NCBI GenBank assembly: GCA_963844575.1
Contig: CAWJOU010000005.1
Coordinates: 767,556 to 831,555, forward strand
Direction of reading: 5' to 3'
From: an uncultured Actinomycetota bacterium
GTDB lineage: Bacteria; Actinomycetota; Acidimicrobiia; Acidimicrobiales; RAAP-2
Length of the DNA: 64,000 bases
Both the position numbers and the translations under genes were made by a program. Each line of letters begins with the position of its first letter. Positions within the stretch are counted from its first letter, which is position 1. Of this stretch, positions 37,262-44,064 are shown piece by piece. The notes beneath the pieces are model-generated. The model ran no database searches, was not told the origin of the DNA, and saw only the letters and a program-made list of their open reading frames with translations.

Positions 37262-40200
37262 TCAGTCGGACAGGCTGATCGGCTGGTCGTCCGGGTCGAG
37301 GGCACCCTCGATGCCGTCGACCCCCCCTTCGGGATCGGAAGGCGCCAGGTGCTGGCGCACCCGGTCGTCGATCTCGGCCATCAGCTGCGGGTTCTCCCGC
37401 AGGAACGCCTTGGCGTTCTCCCGGCCCTGGCCCAACTGCTCACCCTCGTAGGTGAACCAGGCGCCCGACTTCTTGATGAACCCGAGATCGACCGCCACGT
37501 CCAGCAGGGAGCCCTCCCGGCTGATCCCGGTCCCGTACATGATGTCGAACTCGGCTTGCTGGAACGGGCGGGCGCAATTCGAGACGACCACGTCATTGGC
37601 AACGAACGTGTGGTGCTCGGCCACCTCGATGTCGTAGATCGGTCGCCACTCGGCCGGGCTCACCGCCGTGATCCGGTCGTACCACAGGTCCTCCTCGAGA
37701 ACCTCCGCCAAGAACGAGCTCTCGAGTGCATCAGCCAGTGCCTGCACCCGGTCCCTGCGTAGGCGGCTCACCCCCAACACCTGGCGCATGCCGCCTTGCG
37801 GGTCACCTCCCAATGGCGCGATCAGTCGGGACGCCAGGGTGGCCGTCAGCCCTCGACGCTCCAGGTAGGCCAGGACCGGACCGGTCTGAGCGGCCGGGAG
37901 GTAACCCCTCTGGGAGCCCCGGTGACGAGCCAGCGCCGGATCGGCCAGGACCTCGGCCAGCTTCCTACCCCTCGGCCCCCATCCGGGGATCGACTTGGCG
38001 AACTGGGCCACGTTGTCGACGCCGGCGATCCGAACCTGGTAGCAGGGCAGTTTTCCCTGCACCCGCCGGCCTTTGATGATGCTAGGCCGTTGCTGCTTCG
38101 GTGTGTAGCGCCCGATGGAGCTTCCGATGCCGAAGCGCAGCAGCAGCCAGTGCAGCTGATGGGCGAGTTGCTCAGACGTGGTGACAAATCCGCAGCGGAC
38201 GCCGCCGGTCTGCTCCCGGCTTACCCAGCCGTCGGTTTCCCAAATCCCGAACAGGAGGTTGCTGATGACTTCGGCTGACACCTCCGGCTTGAAGAACGCC
38301 ACCGGGATGCGCTTTTCGGGAGCCGTGTGCCCCCAAATACCTGCCCACCGGGCCAGTTCGAGGAGCTCGTTCTTCTCGCCGGGTCGGTGTGAGTAGGAAA
38401 CTTCGATCCCCTTCACGTGGCTCTCGCAACCCAGCGTGGCCGCAATGGCGGCGGCGTCCTCGTGGAGGTCCGGCTGGACGTTGATGAACGAGATCGGCGT
38501 CTTCCCGGTCACGCCGCCGTCGCCGATCAGGTAGCCCAACATCCGGGCATGTGCCGGAGGGACCGGCTGCTCGTCGCCGAAACCCCCCGCCCGGCGCGGG
38601 CGGGCCAGGCGATCGCCGACGCCCAGCTCCCCCGCCTCCCGCCAGCCAGCGTCAGTGAGCACCCTGTGGTCCGCGGTGACCCACAGCTCCGTGCCGTCGC
38701 GCAGGTGCAGTCCGACGACCTCGTGCTCTCCTTGGTCCATCCGGGCCACGATCGGCCGGACATGCAGCTTGCCCGCCTTGTCGGCGGCCATCACGGCGAC
38801 CCCTTCGCCGCGTTCCACGACGTCCTCGATCCGGTGGGTGGTCCCAGTGACCGGGTCGAAGACCGTCGTCCCGGCCGCCACGCACTTGTTCTTGACCACC
38901 TTCACCCGGGTCCGATTGCCGATCATCTCGGCCCCGTCCTTGATGGTCTCGATCCGGCGGATGTCCAGCCGGACCGACGAGTAGAACTTCAGCGCCCGCC
39001 CGCCCGGGGTCGTCTCAGGAGAGTTGTGCACGACGACGCCGTCGACCAGGTAGTTGTGGCTGCCCTCCACCTCGATGTCGAACCGGTGGGAGTGCTTCGT
39101 CGACGGCTTCACGTGGACGTCGATGACCGGCAACGCCATCAGCTCGTAGCGCATCGGAGCGATGACCGGCTCTACGGCAAATCGGCCTCGGTAGGCCGGG
39201 AGGAGCTTGTAATCCATGCTCGGATGGACGAACGGCGCGATGAGCGCGTGCAACTTGGCCGTCTCGGCGTTGGTGAACGTCAGCACGGCCTTGCCGACCG
39301 CTCCGCTGGGAGCCAGCCTGCCGTGGATCCCCCACGTGTCGGCCAGGTAGGCCACCAGGCGGTCACGGGTGGCCGGCTCCATGGCTTCCACACAGATCTG
39401 TGCCCGTCCAGTCCCACCCTTGGTCCGCTTCTGCACTCCCTTGGAGCGGATGGTGAAGTTGGCGTCGTCCATGTACCAGAGGGCGATGGAGAGGGGGGTG
39501 AGGGCCTTCAGGTACTCATCGTCGAGCACCTTCTTGCCTTCGACGTAAACCGACCGTCGAAGCTCGGCCAACTCCGCTAGTGGCTGGAAGTCGTACTGGA
39601 CGACCCCGTCTTCCCGGACGTGACGGCTCGATTCGAGATTGCCGAAGAGCGAGGCCTTCCAGTCGGCATAAGCGACCTGCGCGGCGCCATGGCAGTAACG
39701 GAAGCGTGCACCGTGGCCACTCCGGGTGGGAGAGACCGCTCCGTCCCCCATCAGGGTGCCGTGGAGAGCCGCCCACTGGAATGCCGACAGATAGTGGGGG
39801 AGGGCCTGCATGACCCGGTCTCCGACTTTCAGGTCCCCCGCCTCCCGCCATCCGGCCGGGGTTCGGATCAGATGGTTGCTGGTGGCCGCGAACTGCGCCT
39901 TGCCGTTCCCCATGGGCTTCGCCACGGTGAATTGCAGGAACTCGTCCGTCCTGCCGTTGTCGAACCAGTTCACCACCCGCTTGGGAACGACCGCGCCGAC
40001 CGCCGGATCGTACGAGAGAACCTCGACCGGGAGCCGCTGGTTGACGATCTTCCCGATCTTCTCCGTCGACCCGTCGGCCAGCACCACTCGGGTGTTGTAG
40101 TGGAAGCAACCATAGAGAACTCCGATCTTCTCCCGGAGCTGGTTGATGAAGACGGCGATCGTGTCCGATTTGTTGAGCGTCCCGGTGAGCTTCCGTAGGG

Positions 40201-40717
40201 CCTGCGACATCAGCCGGGCCTGCAGCCCGACGTGGGTGTCACCCATCTCCCCGTCGATCTCCGCACGCGGCGTCAGCGCGGCCACCGAGTCGATGACGAT
40301 GATGTCCAGGGCGCCCGACCGGATCAGCATGTCCGCGATCTCCAGGGCCTGCTCCCCGGTGTCCGGTTGGGAGATCAGCAGGTCGTCCACGTTGACCCCG
40401 ATGGCCTTGGCGTACACCGGGTCCATGGCGTGCTCGGCATCGACGTACGCGCAGATGCCGCCGTTCCGCTGGGCTTCGGCGACGCAGTGCATGGCCAGCG
40501 TCGACTTCCCGGACGACTCCGGGCCGAAGATCTCGACGATCCGGCCCCGGGGGAGCCCACCGATGCCGAGGGCGAGATCCAGGGAGAGCGCTCCCGTGGG
40601 GATCGCCTCGATGCCCAGGTTGATGTTGTCGCCCATCCGCATGACCGAGCCCTTGCCGAACTGCTTCTCGATCTGCCCGAGGGCCACGTCCAGGGCCTTG
40701 TCTCGCTCCTCTGCCAT
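37262..40717 (-). CDS. recA: recombinase RecA precursor containing two inteins (exteins 203 + 46 + 104 = 353 aa)
   Basis: Exteins match RecA throughout ([23 protein letters not shown] / [21 protein letters not shown] / [15 protein letters not shown]). Two in-frame insertions show intein termini. SOS box upstream. Confidence 0.95.
37577..38884 (-). other. RecA intein 2 (436 aa, residues 612-1047), LAGLIDADG type, M. tuberculosis-type insertion site
   Basis: Starts [11 protein letters not shown], block B TADH, LAGLIDADG-like [11 protein letters not shown] and [11 protein letters not shown], ends DVVVSN with +1 Cys. Inserted between VKVVKNK and [10 protein letters not shown]. Confidence 0.9.
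39023..40108 (-). other. RecA intein 1 (362 aa, residues 204-565), LAGLIDADG homing-endonuclease type, M. leprae-type insertion site
   Basis: Starts [13 protein letters not shown], block B TSNH, LAGLIDADG-like [11 protein letters not shown] and [10 protein letters not shown], ends GVVVHN with +1 Ser. Inserted between GVLYG and SPETTPGG. Confidence 0.9.
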
Positions 40718-41492: not shown

Positions 41493-41627
41493 GCGATCCG
41501 GTAGCCTTTGTCGACGCCGGACGCCGGTCCGGTCGCCTTCCCGGGGCCACGCTCCGCTGGCGGCCAGGAGGGGGCACGGAGTCGCTGGAGAGGTGCGAGA
41601 GCGGCCGAATCGGACTCACTGCTAATG
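41493..41627 (+). repeat. 135-bp direct repeat, left copy: tRNA-Ser upstream region plus the tRNA 5' half (41587..41627), truncated in the anticodon stem
   Basis: Matches 43738..43872 with 1 substitution and 2 compensating 1-nt indels. Identity ends at ...CTGCTAATG. Confidence 0.85.
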
Positions 41628-41820
41628 GGCCTAGATGCAGCGCCGCCTCACGGAGACGAATTCGGCGCACTTCCTGGTAATCCGTACCGTGGCTGCGTTC
41701 ATCGACACTGCCGTCAAGCCCGAGGCCTGGTACCAGCACTATCCCAACCAGGGATGACACACCGACGAACGAACGTCGTCGTCCCTTTCAATGATGGTTG
41801 AACGGAGGAGCGGGCCGTTG

Positions 41821-42762
41821 ATGCGTGACTACGTCGATGTCGACGTCAGTACGTGGAGCCTGATGCGTGTCGAGCCGATGGGCAGCAAGCCAGACAAGCT
41901 GTGGCTCCGCGGCTCCGACAGCCACGACGACAAACCAGTCAGTTGGCTCTTCAAGCCGCGGGGGATGCAGCGAGAGAAGAACCGACAGTTCCCGAGAGGT
42001 GAGGACTGGGCCGAGAAGATCGTCGCAGAGGTAGCAGCCGCACTCGCGATCCCCGCGGCAGGTGTTCAACTGGCGCACCGGGGCGACCAATTCGGGATCA
42101 TCTCTCGGAACGTCACGGAAGGACGGGCCCTCGTCCTCGGGAACGAGATTCTTTCGGGCGCCGACCCCGACTACGACCCCGACCGGCAGCGTAACGTTCC
42201 CGGTTACACCGTCGAAGCCGTGGTTTCGGCGCTGGAGGGGCTCGGAGCGACGGCACCGATCTCCTCTCAGGGGATTGATGCCGCGTCCATCTTCGCCGGC
42301 TATCTCGTCCTCGACGCACTTGTGGCCAACATGGACCGGCACCACGAGAACTGGGGAGTCCTCGTCGACCAGCGGGGACTGGCGCCGCCCTTGCTTGCAC
42401 CCACGTTCGACCACGCATCATCCCTCGGATTCCAGCTCTCCGATGAGGAGCGGACTGAGCGCCTCGACACCGCGGATGGGAACCGAATGCTCGACCGATA
42501 CGCTGAGCGCGGGCGCAGTCGCCACTTTGCTGGCTCGCCGGGTCTCGTCAACTTGGCTCTGGACGCCCTCGACCGGTTCTGCACCGGAAGCTGCCGAGAC
42601 GGCTACCTGGGGCGGTTGGAGGCCCTCAATGACCAGACCTTGTCGTCCGTCGTGGACGCCGTCCCCGATGGCCGGATGTCACTACCTGCACGTAGGTTCT
42701 GCGCAAGACTGATGGGGATCAACCGAAGGAGGTTGCTCGATGGCGTCAAACGAAGTCGCTGA
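41821..42762 (+). CDS. HipA-like Ser/Thr kinase, short form (core kinase only; HipT-like)
   Basis: Catalytic-loop motif LVANMDRHHENWG, FDHASS (Mg-binding Asp region), and a Gly-rich loop MGSKPDK. GGAGGAG lies 10 nt upstream of ATG 41821 (track ORF starts at 41791). Confidence 0.7.
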   Translation: MRDYVDVDVSTWSLMRVEPMGSKPDKLWLRGSDSHDDKPVSWLFKPRGMQREKNRQFPRGEDWAEKIVAEVAAALAIPAAGVQLAHRGDQFGIISRNVTEGRALVLGNEILSGADPDYDPDRQRNVPGYTVEAVVSALEGLGATAPISSQGIDAASIFAGYLVLDALVANMDRHHENWGVLVDQRGLAPPLLAPTFDHASSLGFQLSDEERTERLDTADGNRMLDRYAERGRSRHFAGSPGLVNLALDALDRFCTGSCRDGYLGRLEALNDQTLSSVVDAVPDGRMSLPARRFCARLMGINRRRLLDGVKRSR

Positions 42763-43528
42763 TCGCCACGAGAGCACGTTCGCGGACCTCCCGGATGCCC
42801 GGCTCTACGTCGCGTGGCAGGACCCGGACTCCCGAGCGGTGGAGCCCGTCGGCCGGCTCGATCGCGTCCATGACGGCACGGCGGCCGGCTACGAGTTCCG
42901 GTACCTCCAGCGCGTGAAGGCACTGCCGGATTTCCAGCCCTTCGTCAGCTTCCCCGACCCTCATCGTGTCTACCGATCGTCGGCGTTGTTTCCGATTTTC
43001 GAGAACCGGCTCATGCCGCGATCGCGGGCCGACTACGAGCAGTTCACTCGATCCGTGGGGCTCGGACTGGACGCCGACCCCTTCGAGGTGTTGGCCAGGA
43101 CCGAGGGCCGTCGGGAGACTGACACGATCGAGATGTTCCCCGAACCGATCGTCGACGACGGATTGGTCCGGTGTCATCTCCTCGTCCACGGTATCCGGTA
43201 CATGGCGGGGGCCGATGACGCGATCGAGCAGCTCTCGCCCGGTCAACAGCTGATGGTCATGTCCGACTTGCAGAACCCGGTCGACTCGTGCGCAGTTCTG
43301 GTGCGGGACGACACCTTCCATCTGATCGGGTGGATCCCCCGCTACCTCACCGCGCTGGTGCGTGATCCTCTTGCCCAGCTTGGTCCCGGCGCCGTACAGG
43401 TCACCGTCGAGCACGTAGGTGAACGCAGCGGACCGGTCCACCTGCGACTCCTCTGTGCCCTACAAGCACAGTGGCCGCACGACGAGGAGCTCCCTTTCAG
43501 CGGTCCGGAGTTTGCACCGGTCGCATAG
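42740..43528 (+). CDS. HipS-like (HipA N-terminal subdomain) / HIRAN-like fusion protein, putative cognate antitoxin
   Basis: N-terminal part resembles the HipA N-subdomain (ALFPIFENRLMPRSRADYEQF...DPFEVLARTEGRRETDTIEMFPE). C-terminal part resembles HIRAN (VHGIRYMAG...PGQQLMVMSDLQNPVDSCAVLVRDD..LIGWIPRYL). AAGGAGG lies 7 nt upstream; the ORF overlaps the kinase gene by 23 nt. Confidence 0.55.
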   Translation: MASNEVADRHESTFADLPDARLYVAWQDPDSRAVEPVGRLDRVHDGTAAGYEFRYLQRVKALPDFQPFVSFPDPHRVYRSSALFPIFENRLMPRSRADYEQFTRSVGLGLDADPFEVLARTEGRRETDTIEMFPEPIVDDGLVRCHLLVHGIRYMAGADDAIEQLSPGQQLMVMSDLQNPVDSCAVLVRDDTFHLIGWIPRYLTALVRDPLAQLGPGAVQVTVEHVGERSGPVHLRLLCALQAQWPHDEELPFSGPEFAPVA

Positions 43529-43737: not shown

Positions 43738-43872
43738 GCGATCCGGTAGCCTTTGTCGACGCCGGACGCCGTCCGGTCGCCTTCCCGGGGCCCACGCTCC
43801 GCCGGCGGCCAGGAGGGGGCACGGAGTCGCTGGAGAGGTGCGAGAGCGGCCGAATCGGACTCACTGCTAATG
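43738..43872 (+). repeat. 135-bp direct repeat, right copy (upstream region plus 5' half of the intact tRNA-Ser)
   Basis: See 41493..41627; the two copies are offset by 2245 bp. Confidence 0.85.
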
Positions 43873-43920
43873 AGTTGACTGGGGGAACCCGGTCCGAGGG
43901 TTCAAATCCCTCCCTCTCCG
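43832..43920 (+). tRNA. tRNA-Ser (anticodon GCU), class II with long variable arm
   Basis: Acceptor GGAGAGG/CCTCTCC, anticodon stem ACTCA/TGAGT with loop CTGCTAA, long variable arm, T arm GAGGG-TTCAAAT-CCCTC. No encoded CCA. Confidence 0.9.
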
Positions 43921-44064
43921 CTGAACCGGTCAGTGTCGGACGGCGGCCGATGTCAGGTCCCGGCGGTCCCGGCGACCGGACATCGGGGTGGCGAAGGTCG
44001 AGCTGGCGCCAGGGCCGTCGCACGCGCGCCGGCTCGGTAACCGGCAAAAGGAGAGAATGTCGTC

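What the first reader, a model, noticed from the sequence alone, without database searches (positions are those of the whole stretch)
41821..43528. Reverse-order Hip module: short HipA-like kinase followed by an overlapping HipS-like/HIRAN fusion, with no HipB
ORF 1 (313 aa) has HipA C-terminal kinase hallmarks (VANMDRHHENWG, FDHASS, Gly-rich MGSKPDK) but lacks the HipA N-terminal subdomain, like HipT. ORF 2 (262 aa) overlaps it by 23 nt and has its own AAGGAGG. Its first ~135 aa resemble the missing HipA N-subdomain / HipS (LFPIFENRLMPRSRADYEQF...FEVLARTEGRRETDTIEMFPE). Its last ~90 aa resemble a HIRAN DNA-end-binding domain (VHGIRYMAG...NPVDSCAVLVRDD..LIGWIPRYL). There is no HTH (HipB) gene, and the kinase comes first, the opposite of hipBA and hipBST. 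As I recall, a phylogenetic survey of Hip kinases by Gerdes and colleagues (about 2021) predicted HipS-HIRAN putative antitoxins from sequence. I am not aware of experimental characterisation. The link between a translation-targeting kinase and a DNA-end sensor on a tRNA-associated islet is the most system-like novelty in this window, possibly a phage- or DNA-damage-triggered toxin.
Basis: partly seen in the sequence, partly recalled or inferred. Interest (0 to 1): 0.8.

Follow-up and report, generated by a model that had tools for sequence, protein, structure and literature searches.

The report
HipI kinase with HipS-HIRAN partner (hipIN)
This is a real two-gene module, a small HipA-type protein kinase followed by a partner that fuses a kinase-inhibitor-like domain to a DNA-end-binding domain. 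It belongs to a widespread family already predicted (but never tested) as the 'hipIN' toxin-antitoxin and phage-defence candidate PDC-M03, so it is a good but not new lead.

Summary
ORF1 (41821-42762, 313 aa) is a HipA-superfamily core kinase with every catalytic residue intact. ORF2 (42740-43528, 262 aa) overlaps it by 23 nt, has its own GAAGGAGG, and is a HipS-like domain fused to a HIRAN domain. Both domains are supported by profiles and by a confident structure model that matches Legionella HipS and HLTF/lp_0118 HIRAN. No HTH gene accompanies the pair, here or in about 80 related loci. The pair is a member of the hipIN family of Gerdes et al. 2021 and hits PADLOC's untested candidate PDC-M03 (A 2e-90, B 8e-80). 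The family is large, with about 700 clusters at 50% identity. It sits on mobile DNA: embedded in type I restriction-modification operons, next to integrases in temperate phages and islands, and on plasmids. In this window it occupies a 2.2-kb, low-GC islet flanked by a 135-nt duplication of the tRNA-Ser 5' region, a decayed integrated element. I found no experimental study. The likely mechanism is inferred: the HipS-like domain restrains the kinase, HIRAN senses DNA 3' ends, and the released kinase blocks growth. Verdict: new member of a known, predicted kind, of moderate interest.

The parts
41493..41627 (+). Left copy of the direct repeat: about 95 nt of the tRNA-Ser upstream region plus the first ~41 nt of the tRNA (to the anticodon loop). 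It is the left boundary of the islet.
   Evidence: the repeat finder D1, 135 nt, 91% ungapped. The gapped alignment is near-identical up to ...CTGCTAATG. ARAGORN calls no tRNA here.
41689..41757 (+). Remnant (last 22 codons plus stop) of a 90-aa small membrane-protein gene. The gene is complete upstream of hipI in the close relatives L001 and L103.
   Evidence: tblastn of the L001 protein gives window 41689-41754 = residues 69-90. The nucleotide homology with L001 and L103 starts at 41696.
41804..41810 (+). Shine-Dalgarno-like GGAGGAG, 10 nt before the hipI ATG.
   Evidence: Read from the sequence.
41821..42762 (+). hipI: a 313-aa HipA-superfamily core Ser/Thr kinase (putative toxin). Key residues are the Gly-rich loop E18-P-M-G21-S22-K23, K45, E65, the catalytic loop D172-R-H174-H-E-N177-W, and D197 (Mg).
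   Evidence: Pfam HipA_C and PADLOC PDC-M03A. Family invariants. AF2 model pLDDT 95.5. Foldseek CtkA 7e-12, HipA 4e-7, HipT 7e-6. hhalign to HipA 272-358.
42725..42732 (+). GAAGGAGG ribosome-binding site for hipN, inside the 3' end of hipI.
   Evidence: Read from the sequence.
42740..43528 (+). hipN: a 262-aa two-domain partner (putative antitoxin/sensor) that overlaps hipI by 23 nt.
   Evidence: PADLOC PDC-M03B 7.8e-80. AF2 model pLDDT 92.5, pTM 0.88.
42797..43153 (+). HipS-like domain of HipN (aa ~20-138), homologous to HipA N-subdomain 1. Invariant residues: Y78, F87, R90, R96, L118, G123, D128, P136.
   Evidence: Foldseek 7vkb_B (HipS of L. pneumophila) E 3.6e-4, TM 0.78. hhalign to HipA 4-106, E 0.0027. 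Couple_hipA hit in 18 of 54 members. Invariants.
43160..43474 (+). HIRAN domain of HipN (aa ~141-245).
   Evidence: Pfam HIRAN 25.1 bits. Profile vs PDB: 3k2y 1.3e-5 and HLTF about 0.01. Foldseek: 3k2y 9e-6 and HLTF 6e-5.
43738..43872 (+). Right copy of the direct repeat, overlapping the start of the intact tRNA.
43832..43921 (+). Intact tRNA-Ser(GCT), the right boundary of the islet.
   Evidence: ARAGORN.

Best explanation
The locus is a hipIN-type kinase module (PADLOC candidate PDC-M03). It is carried on a decayed, horizontally acquired 2.2-kb islet inserted just upstream of tRNA-Ser(GCT). Shown: HipI is a catalytically complete HipA-superfamily core kinase lacking HipA's N-subdomain 1. HipN supplies that missing subdomain as a HipS-like domain fused to a HIRAN domain. 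The two genes are translationally coupled, always adjacent in this order, co-diverge, and travel on mobile and defence-associated DNA. [quoted passage not shown] The HIRAN domain binds free DNA 3' ends, such as incoming or replicating phage DNA, restriction or RecBCD products, or damaged DNA. That binding loosens the inhibition. The freed kinase then phosphorylates an essential host protein, most likely in translation (an aminoacyl-tRNA synthetase, as for HipA and HipT). Growth stops and the infection aborts, and the same toxicity can also stabilise the carrying element.
For: Identity: PDC-M03A/B hits at 2.4e-90 and 7.8e-80. Pfam HipA_C and HIRAN. The description of hipIN in Gerdes et al. 2021 matches point by point.

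Kinase competence: E18, G21, K45, E65, D172, R173, H174, N177, W178 and D197 are invariant in 48 relatives. They align to HipA D309/H311/N314/D332. The model has pLDDT 95.5 and matches CtkA, HipA and HipT. Ser or Thr follows the loop Gly in 38 of 48 relatives.

HipS-like and HIRAN domains.

Unit behaviour: kinase then HipN on the same strand in 81 of 83 loci, with a -9 to +90 nt gap. All 80 best viral loci have the partner. Mantel r is 0.81 between the two proteins' distance matrices, against a permutation maximum of 0.12. Natural fusions (HipL) occur in phage 899 and in 2 viral contigs, which argues for a cis-acting regulatory unit. No HTH partner was found.

Conflict context: 12 of 81 loci are embedded in type I R-M operons such as hsdM-hsdS-hipI-hipN-hsdR. 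The pair lies next to integrases in C. difficile phage phiCDKH02, in Vibrio PE001 elements and in L002. 138 IMG/VR contigs carry it, as do plasmids. An orphan HipS-like gene sits in a Rathayibacter phage.

Islet: 135-nt repeat, GC 0.63-0.66 against 0.72-0.75 in the flanks, and a truncated neighbouring gene.

DNA binding: HIRAN retains R153/Y154, N179, D182, W198 and R201, at the positions of HLTF R71/Y72, N91, D94, H110 and K113. The roles of the HLTF residues are from my own knowledge.
Against: No experiment on any hipIN, HipL or PDC-M03 system was found in the searchable literature. Toxicity, neutralisation, target and trigger are therefore all unproven.

Pfam HipA_C is just below its gathering score (29.2 vs 30.5), and NCBIfam has no model for either protein.

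The closest solved kinase is H. pylori CtkA, which is not a TA toxin.

The HIRAN lacks the second stacking aromatic (V181 at HLTF Y93). Gerdes et al. noted that actinobacterial HipN HIRANs have lost most DNA-contact motifs.

The HipS Trp65 position is an invariant Arg (R96) in HipN, so the inhibitory contact, if any, differs.

In this window the pair is solitary among housekeeping genes, not in a defence island.

I could not model the complex.
Confidence: 0.55

Rival explanations
1. Plain addiction (post-segregational killing) module. HipN is a labile antitoxin, HipI a stable toxin, and the pair exists only to stabilise the integrative elements, plasmids and prophages that carry it. HIRAN serves for autoregulation or DNA tethering rather than for sensing invaders.
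For: The pair is found on plasmids, next to integrases at prophage and island ends, and here on a decayed integrated islet that has outlived the rest of its element. No HTH is present, so HIRAN would be the only DNA-binding part available for autoregulation.
Against: Single-polypeptide HipL fusions cannot work by differential decay of a separate antitoxin. HIRAN domains are known (my knowledge) as sequence-independent DNA-end binders, not operator binders. Embedding inside type I R-M operons points to defence rather than maintenance.
Confidence: 0.2
2. Split kinase rather than toxin-antitoxin. [quoted passage not shown] HIRAN recruits the holo-kinase to DNA ends, where it phosphorylates DNA-associated host or phage proteins.
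For: In HipA the homologous subdomain is an integral part of an active kinase. HipN's HipS-like domain aligns to it. The Trp that makes HipS inhibitory is replaced by an invariant Arg. The fused HipL forms look like circularly re-ordered full-length kinases. The co-divergence is tight.
Against: In the only tested split system (HipBST) the detached subdomain is the antitoxin. The mobile-element and R-M context fits a suicide effector. An orphan HipS-like gene in a lytic-type phage genome makes most sense as an inhibitor.
Confidence: 0.15
3. In this genome the pair is an inert relic of a lost mobile element, no longer expressed or functional.
For: The islet is decayed. No integrase is left, and the upstream small gene is truncated to 22 codons. 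No sigma-70-like promoter was found. Apparent frameshifts occur in the relatives L001 (kinase) and L103 (HipN).
Against: Both ORFs are full length with all family-invariant residues and good ribosome-binding sites. The frameshifts in the relatives sit in assemblies that also break miaB and cinA, so they are probably sequencing errors. The promoter scan does not cover actinobacterial promoters. A duplicated tRNA-Ser upstream region lies about 200 nt ahead of hipI in the same orientation.
Confidence: 0.07

Closest known systems
[quoted passage not shown]
   Same: A short core kinase of about 280-320 aa with the Gly-rich loop near the N terminus. A downstream gene encodes a HipS-like N-domain plus a C-terminal HIRAN. 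There is no HipB. The family occurs in Actinobacteria.
   Different: Nothing structural differs. This copy keeps more HLTF-like DNA-contact residues (R153/Y154, D182, W198, R201) than the paper's remark on actinobacterial HipN would suggest. I did not place it in their tree.
PADLOC phage defence candidate PDC-M03 (Payne et al. 2024 preprint, 10.1101/2024.01.29.577857)
   Same: Both proteins hit the A and B models end to end at 2.4e-90 and 7.8e-80. Relatives are embedded in type I R-M operons, which is how the candidates were found.
   Different: In the window the pair is solitary, not embedded in a defence system. PDC-M03 is among the 145 untested candidates.
HipBST of E. coli O127:H6 and Legionella pneumophila (HipS antitoxin, HipT kinase)
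   Same: The kinase lacks N-subdomain 1, and a separate protein carries the homologous fold. The HipN N-domain matches HipS(Lp) 7vkb_B (TM 0.78), and the kinase matches HipT. This is the likely mode of inhibition.
   Different: There is no HipB. The gene order is reversed. The HipS-like domain is fused to HIRAN. HipS Trp65 is replaced by an invariant Arg. The kinase is closer to CtkA than to HipT, and the HipT profile E-value is only 0.2.
HipL single-chain kinases (kinase + HipS-like + HIRAN), e.g. the 519-aa protein of E. coli P2-like phage 899
   Same: The same three domains in the same order.
   Different: HipL is fused into one polypeptide. In phage 899 it is preceded by an Rv2179c-like DEDD exonuclease that is absent from the window.
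PrrC-EcoprrI (anticodon nuclease embedded in a type I R-M operon); from my own knowledge
   Same: A latent translation-targeting suicide effector sits between hsdS and hsdR. This is the arrangement seen for hipIN in L070, L040, L080 and L032.
   Different: The proteins are unrelated. The similarity is of context only, and it does not apply to the window's solitary copy.
Helicobacter pylori CtkA (PDB 3akj/3akk)
   Same: It is the closest solved structure to the kinase, at profile E 1.8e-15 and Foldseek E 7e-12 with TM 0.73-0.77.
   Different: CtkA is a stand-alone kinase reported as a secreted pro-inflammatory factor. It has no HipS-like or HIRAN partner.

Membership tests
hipIN (HipI/HipN, Gerdes et al. 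2021) | Short HipA-homologous core kinase (about 279-321 aa) lacking N-subdomain 1 | tested here: met
   313 aa. Pfam HipA_C covers aa 45-213. The Foldseek alignment to HipA covers only its core (TM normalised to HipA 0.43) and to HipT. The Gly-rich loop is at residues 18-26.
hipIN (HipI/HipN, Gerdes et al. 2021) | Conserved Hip kinase motifs (Gly-rich loop, ATP Lys, catalytic D-x-H-x-x-N, Mg-binding D) | tested here: met
   G21, K45, D172, H174, N177 and D197 are invariant in 48 relatives.
hipIN (HipI/HipN, Gerdes et al. 2021) | [quoted passage not shown] | tested here: met
hipIN (HipI/HipN, Gerdes et al. 2021) | Bicistronic, kinase first, no HTH/HipB gene | tested here: met
hipIN (HipI/HipN, Gerdes et al. 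2021) | Phylogenetic placement inside a HipI subclade of main clade XI | not tested
   The reference sequences of the published tree were not at hand. The only proxy is the end-to-end hit to PDC-M03A models.
hipIN (HipI/HipN, Gerdes et al. 2021) | Kinase is toxic and HipN neutralises it | not testable with these tools
   This is also untested in the literature found.
PADLOC PDC-M03 | Adjacent genes matching the PDC-M03A and PDC-M03B profiles | tested here: met
   A: 2.4e-90 over 11-319 of the 323-aa form. B: 7.8e-80 over 20-261.
HipBST | Tricistronic hipB-hipS-hipT with an HTH HipB and a free ~100-aa HipS | tested here: not met
   There is no HTH gene. The HipS-like domain is fused to HIRAN, and the order is reversed.
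Canonical HipBA | ~440-aa HipA with N-subdomain 1, preceded by HipB | tested here: not met
   The kinase is 313 aa without the subdomain, and there is no HipB.
HIRAN domain (Pfam PF08797) | Profile score above the gathering threshold, and the HIRAN fold | tested here: met
   25.1 bits against 24.7. 52 of 54 relatives hit. Foldseek: 3k2y TM 0.74, HLTF 0.56-0.59.
HIRAN domain (Pfam PF08797) | Residues that hold a DNA 3' end in HLTF (R71, Y72, Y93, D94, H110, K113; roles from my own knowledge) | tested here: inconclusive
   R153, Y154, D182, W198 and R201 are present, and V181 replaces Y93. The R71/Y72 mapping is by inspection of GLRYY against GIRYM.

The most novel reading that the evidence does not exclude
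hipIN is a DNA-end-licensed kinase switch that acts as a second line of immunity. When restriction, RecBCD or phage replication produces free 3' ends, or short DNA products, the HIRAN domain of HipN captures them. This releases the HipS-like clamp, whose invariant Arg96 stands in for HipS Trp65. The HipI kinase then shuts down translation. This would explain why the pair is nested between hsdS and hsdR like PrrC, why some relatives are coupled to DEDD deoxydinucleotide nucleases, and why a lytic-type Rathayibacter phage carries an orphan HipS-like gene as a decoy antitoxin.
Probability: 0.3. Interest if true: 0.75.

Novelty: new member of a known kind. Interest (0 to 1): 0.4.

Why it matters
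If the inferred mechanism holds, hipIN would be a bacterial immune or addiction switch in which a eukaryote-like DNA-end reader (HIRAN) controls a protein kinase that blocks translation. That would be a direct wire from 'foreign or broken DNA' to 'stop growing', and no solved example exists. The family is large and spread over many phyla, phages and plasmids, so a mechanism would generalise. The window's copy itself adds little beyond another clean, intact member. Better experimental entry points turned up along the way: E. coli P2-like phage 899 HipL, C. difficile phiCDKH02, and the Vibrio PE001 elements.

Tried and rejected
1. The search for related loci with the 54-sequence HipN alignment failed because no stretch was conserved enough. 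I used the kinase alignment instead.

2. Empty-site search. A scan of metagenome contigs with the neighbouring LigT protein found only ~50%-identical relatives without tRNA-Ser synteny. I therefore could not show an uninterrupted site. The source contig itself is not retrievable.

3. A third gene. The diDNase/DEDD nuclease reported next to HipA+HIRAN genes in Actinobacteria is not in the islet. tblastn with the phage-899 DEDD protein hit no other locus. The gene after hipN in L002 has no Pfam or PADLOC hit. Neighbour clustering found no conserved partner other than type I R-M subunits and no small HTH partner.

4. Pseudogene signal. The apparent frameshifts in the L001 kinase and L103 HipN were rejected as evidence of decay, because the same assemblies also split miaB and cinA.

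5. att repeats around tRNA-adjacent hipIN in L034, L009 and L029 gave only chance-level matches.

6. More orphan HipS-like genes in viruses: none found in IMG/VR.

7. The Rfam scan of the window gave nothing. The promoter and terminator scan gave nothing above chance.

8. NCBIfam has no model for either protein.

9. The 'HIRAN' mentions in Millman et al. 2022 turned out to be the author name Hirano.
Full report
OBSERVATION.
- hipI runs from ATG 41821 to TGA 42760-42762 (313 aa). GGAGGAG lies 10 nt upstream. A database protein of exactly this sequence and length exists (P0109, on a 3.67-Mb contig), so 41821 rather than the in-frame ATG 41791 is the likely start.
- hipN runs from ATG 42740 to TAG 43526-43528 (262 aa). 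It overlaps hipI by 23 nt and is preceded by GAAGGAGG at 42725-42732.
- No other credible gene lies between the flanking repeats.

WHAT THE PROTEINS ARE: THE KINASE.
- It hits Pfam HipA_C weakly (E 8.8e-7; 29.2 bits against a cut-off of 30.5) and nothing in NCBIfam.
- It matches PADLOC's PDC-M03A models end to end (2.4e-90).
- In an alignment of 48 relatives, E18, G21, W28, K45, E65, D165, D172, R173, H174, N177, W178 and D197 are invariant. A Ser or Thr follows the loop glycine in 38 of 48.
- The AlphaFold model is very confident (pLDDT 95.5, pTM 0.93).
- Its best structural matches are H. pylori CtkA (E 7e-12, TM 0.73-0.77), then HipA (4e-7), then HipT of E. coli and Legionella (about 1e-5). 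By sequence profile CtkA is also by far the closest solved relative (1.8e-15 against 0.2-1 for HipT and HipA).
- So this is a catalytically complete HipA-superfamily core kinase without HipA's N-subdomain 1.

WHAT THE PROTEINS ARE: THE PARTNER.
- It hits Pfam HIRAN just above threshold (aa 148-208) and PDC-M03B at 7.8e-80.
- A 54-member family profile finds the bacterial HIRAN protein lp_0118 (1.3e-5) and HLTF HIRAN (about 0.01) among solved structures.
- 52 of 54 members hit Pfam HIRAN, and 18 of 54 hit Couple_hipA, the HipA N-terminal domain (best 4.8e-6).
- hhalign aligns HipN 21-133 with HipA 4-106 (E 0.0027).
- The structure model (pLDDT 92.5, pTM 0.88) matches lp_0118 (E 9e-6, TM 0.74) and HLTF HIRAN (6e-5). 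It also matches chain B of 7vkb, the HipS antitoxin of Legionella HipBST (E 3.6e-4, probability 1.0, TM 0.78, rmsd 3.1 Å).

FINER POINTS.
- In the HIRAN domain, the profile alignment to HLTF puts N179, V181, D182, A185, G197, W198 and R201 at HLTF N91, Y93, D94, A97, G109, H110 and K113. GIRYM (151-155) corresponds by inspection to HLTF GLRYY (R71, Y72).
- From my own knowledge of the HLTF-DNA structures, Y72 and Y93 sandwich the 3' base, D94 reads the 3'-OH, and R71, H110 and K113 touch the backbone. The window's HipN keeps all of these except the Y93 aromatic. DNA-end binding is therefore plausible but not assured. Gerdes et al. also remarked that actinobacterial HipN HIRANs have lost most contact motifs.
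- In the HipS-like domain, Y78, F87, R90, R96, L118, G123, D128 and P136 are invariant.
- The hhalign register is HipN P93-R-S-R96 = HipA P66-D-S-P69. The published equivalence is HipS Glu63 = the conserved acidic residue of HipA, with Trp65 two residues later. Together these put the invariant R96 at the place of the inhibitory Trp65 of HipS. This is an inference, not a result. It means that if HipN inhibits, it probably does so through a different contact.

HOW THE PAIR BEHAVES ELSEWHERE.
- A scan of one genome per species found more than 538 relatives of the kinase.
- Across the 83 sequences examined (82 loci L001-L082, L002 and L004 being the same contig, plus the window), kinase-then-HipN on one strand holds in 81. 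The aligned start of HipN lies -9 to +90 nt from the end of the kinase ORF. One exception is a contig end (L006, which keeps only the N-domain), and L054 shows no HipN.
- No conserved small or HTH gene accompanies the pair.
- The distance matrices of the two proteins correlate (Mantel r 0.81; maximum of 999 permutations 0.12).
- The HipN family comprises about 700 clusters at 50% identity with E <= 1e-30 and 1696 with E <= 1e-10. It spans Actinomycetota, Planctomycetota, Verrucomicrobiota, Myxococcota, Pseudomonadota, Cyanobacteria, Acidobacteriota and others.

CONTEXT.
- Twelve of 81 loci have the pair inside or beside a type I restriction-modification operon, for example hsdM-hsdS-hipI-hipN-hsdR in L070, L040 and L080 (Pfam confirmation).
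- The pair lies next to a tyrosine integrase after tRNA-Ala in an Acidimicrobiaceae MAG (L002).
- It lies next to the integrase of C. difficile phage phiCDKH02 and of 14-kb Vibrio Vinavirales elements.
- It lies directly beside tRNA genes in Sorangium and other loci.
- It occurs on Mycolicibacterium, Rhodococcus, Nostoc and Oscillatoria plasmids.
- It occurs on 138 IMG/VR viral contigs. All 80 examined have the HipS-like partner, and two are fused.
- E. coli P2-like phage 899 carries the fused form (HipA_C + Couple_hipA + HIRAN, 519 aa) after an Rv2179c-like DEDD exonuclease, between the replication endonuclease and portal genes. This echoes the reported link between deoxydinucleotide nucleases and HipA+HIRAN genes in Actinobacteria.

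THE ISLET IN THIS WINDOW.
- A 135-nt direct repeat flanks the pair, at 41493-41627 and 43738-43872.
- The repeat consists of about 95 nt upstream of tRNA-Ser(GCT) plus the first ~41 nt of the tRNA, up to the anticodon loop. The intact tRNA is on the right.
- GC content is 0.63-0.66 inside, against 0.72-0.75 in ligT, miaB, pgsA and cinA.
- Two close relatives (L001 and L103, 92-97% nucleotide identity) carry the same pair upstream of the same tRNA. They have about 0.7 kb more at the left end, including a complete 90-aa small membrane-protein gene. The window retains only its last 22 codons (41689-41757). In L103 two IS4-type transposases replace the left flank.
- The islet is thus a decayed remnant of a larger integrated element.
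- The duplication of the tRNA's 5' half rather than its 3' half is unusual for integrase-mediated insertion, and I could not explain it.
- The left repeat places a copy of the tRNA's upstream region about 200 nt ahead of hipI in the same orientation. It could serve as the promoter for hipI, but that is speculation.

COMPARISON WITH WHAT IS KNOWN.
[quoted passage not shown] They also proposed the DNA-end-triggered abortive-infection idea.
- Payne et al. (2024 preprint) independently listed the pair as PDC-M03, one of 145 untested candidates found by 'guilt by embedding' in BREX, DISARM and type I R-M systems.
- Searches for HipN/HipI, HIRAN+HipA, HIRAN+kinase+anti-phage and PDC-M03 found no experimental work.
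- The module is not HipBST. It has no HipB, the order is reversed, HipS is fused, and the kinase subfamily differs. It is not HipBA either.

MECHANISM AND CONFIDENCE.
- Membership in hipIN/PDC-M03: about 0.95.
- HipI is a growth-arresting kinase restrained by HipN's HipS-like domain: about 0.6. This rests on the HipBST precedent, the fold match and the obligatory pairing.
- HIRAN acts as a DNA-end sensor that releases the kinase in a phage or mobile-element conflict: about 0.35. The supporting evidence is circumstantial: the R-M embedding, the phage and integrase contexts, the natural fusions, and an orphan HipS-like gene (gp43, E 4e-25 to the HipN N-domain profile) in Rathayibacter phage NCPPB3778. 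That phage has no detectable HipI kinase, so gp43 could be a decoy antitoxin.
- The rivals are a plain addiction module, a split kinase in which HipN is an activating or targeting subunit, and an inert relic.

VERDICT. The finding is real and correctly interpreted. It is a new member of an already described, computationally predicted and experimentally untouched family. It is interesting as a class, but this copy is not exceptional.

Noticed in passing
window 37262-40717 (-): recA is 1151 aa and carries two inteins with LAGLIDADG homing-endonuclease domains. The equally long orthologue in L001 hits RecA_N, LAGLIDADG_2, Intein_splicing, LAGLIDADG_3 and RecA_C.
   Followed up: partly
window 41493-41627 and 43738-43872: The islet is flanked by a duplication of the 5' half of tRNA-Ser plus ~95 nt of upstream sequence, not the 3' half that integrases usually duplicate. 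In the relative L001 the left copy is shorter (94 nt, 84% identical) and lacks the tRNA fragment. The origin of the duplication is unexplained.
   Followed up: partly
window 41689-41757; L001 8746-9018; L103 7667-7939: A 90-aa small protein (N-terminal CPRC motif and hydrophobic stretches, no Pfam hit) is encoded just upstream of hipI in two close relatives. In the window it is truncated to its last 22 codons. It is not found next to hipIN in other loci.
   Followed up: partly
L104 2977-3360 (Rathayibacter phage NCPPB3778, KX911187.2 29921-30304): gp43 (127 aa) is an orphan HipS-like protein: E 4e-25 to the HipN N-domain profile and 38% identity to the window's HipN residues 22-108. It sits among small early-type genes. 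The phage has no detectable HipI kinase or HIRAN domain. It is a candidate phage-encoded antitoxin mimic. No relatives were found in IMG/VR.
   Followed up: partly
L101 1962-4166 (Escherichia phage 899, PV533660.1 22979-25183; the same genes in Yersinia phage GMG73): A P2-like phage carries an Rv2179c-like DEDD 3'-5' exonuclease followed by a 519-aa HipL-type fusion (HipA_C + Couple_hipA + HIRAN) between the replication endonuclease and portal genes. This is an E. coli-tractable relative of the window's system.
   Followed up: partly
L105 2092-4890 (C. difficile phage phiCDKH02); L102 2530-5347 (Vibrio phage 10N.286.55.A12_PE001); L002 7773-10789: hipI-hipN sits immediately beside the integrase at the end of temperate phages and of a tRNA-Ala island. 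In phiCDKH02 it follows the XRE/ImmA lysogeny-control genes.
   Followed up: partly
L082 4199-6802: An Armatimonas MAG has two tandem HipI-like kinase genes followed by a single hipN.
   Followed up: no
L001 15121-15626: The close relative carries a YoeB/YefM toxin-antitoxin pair and HTH genes a few kb downstream of cinA. I did not check whether the window has them.
   Followed up: no
L001 9077-9973; L103 9194-9709 and 10245-11730: The relatives show a frameshifted kinase (L001) and an N-terminally cut HipN (L103). The same assemblies also split miaB and cinA, so these are probably assembly errors rather than pseudogenes.
   Followed up: partly
window 1-64000: The Rfam gathering-threshold scan of the whole window returned no match at all, although ARAGORN finds tRNA-Ser(GCT) at 43832-43921.
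   Followed up: no
window 41764-41782: There is a short palindrome, CGACGA-ACGAACG-TCGTCG, about 40 nt upstream of the hipI start, between the truncated small gene and the ribosome-binding site. It may or may not be a regulatory site.
   Followed up: no
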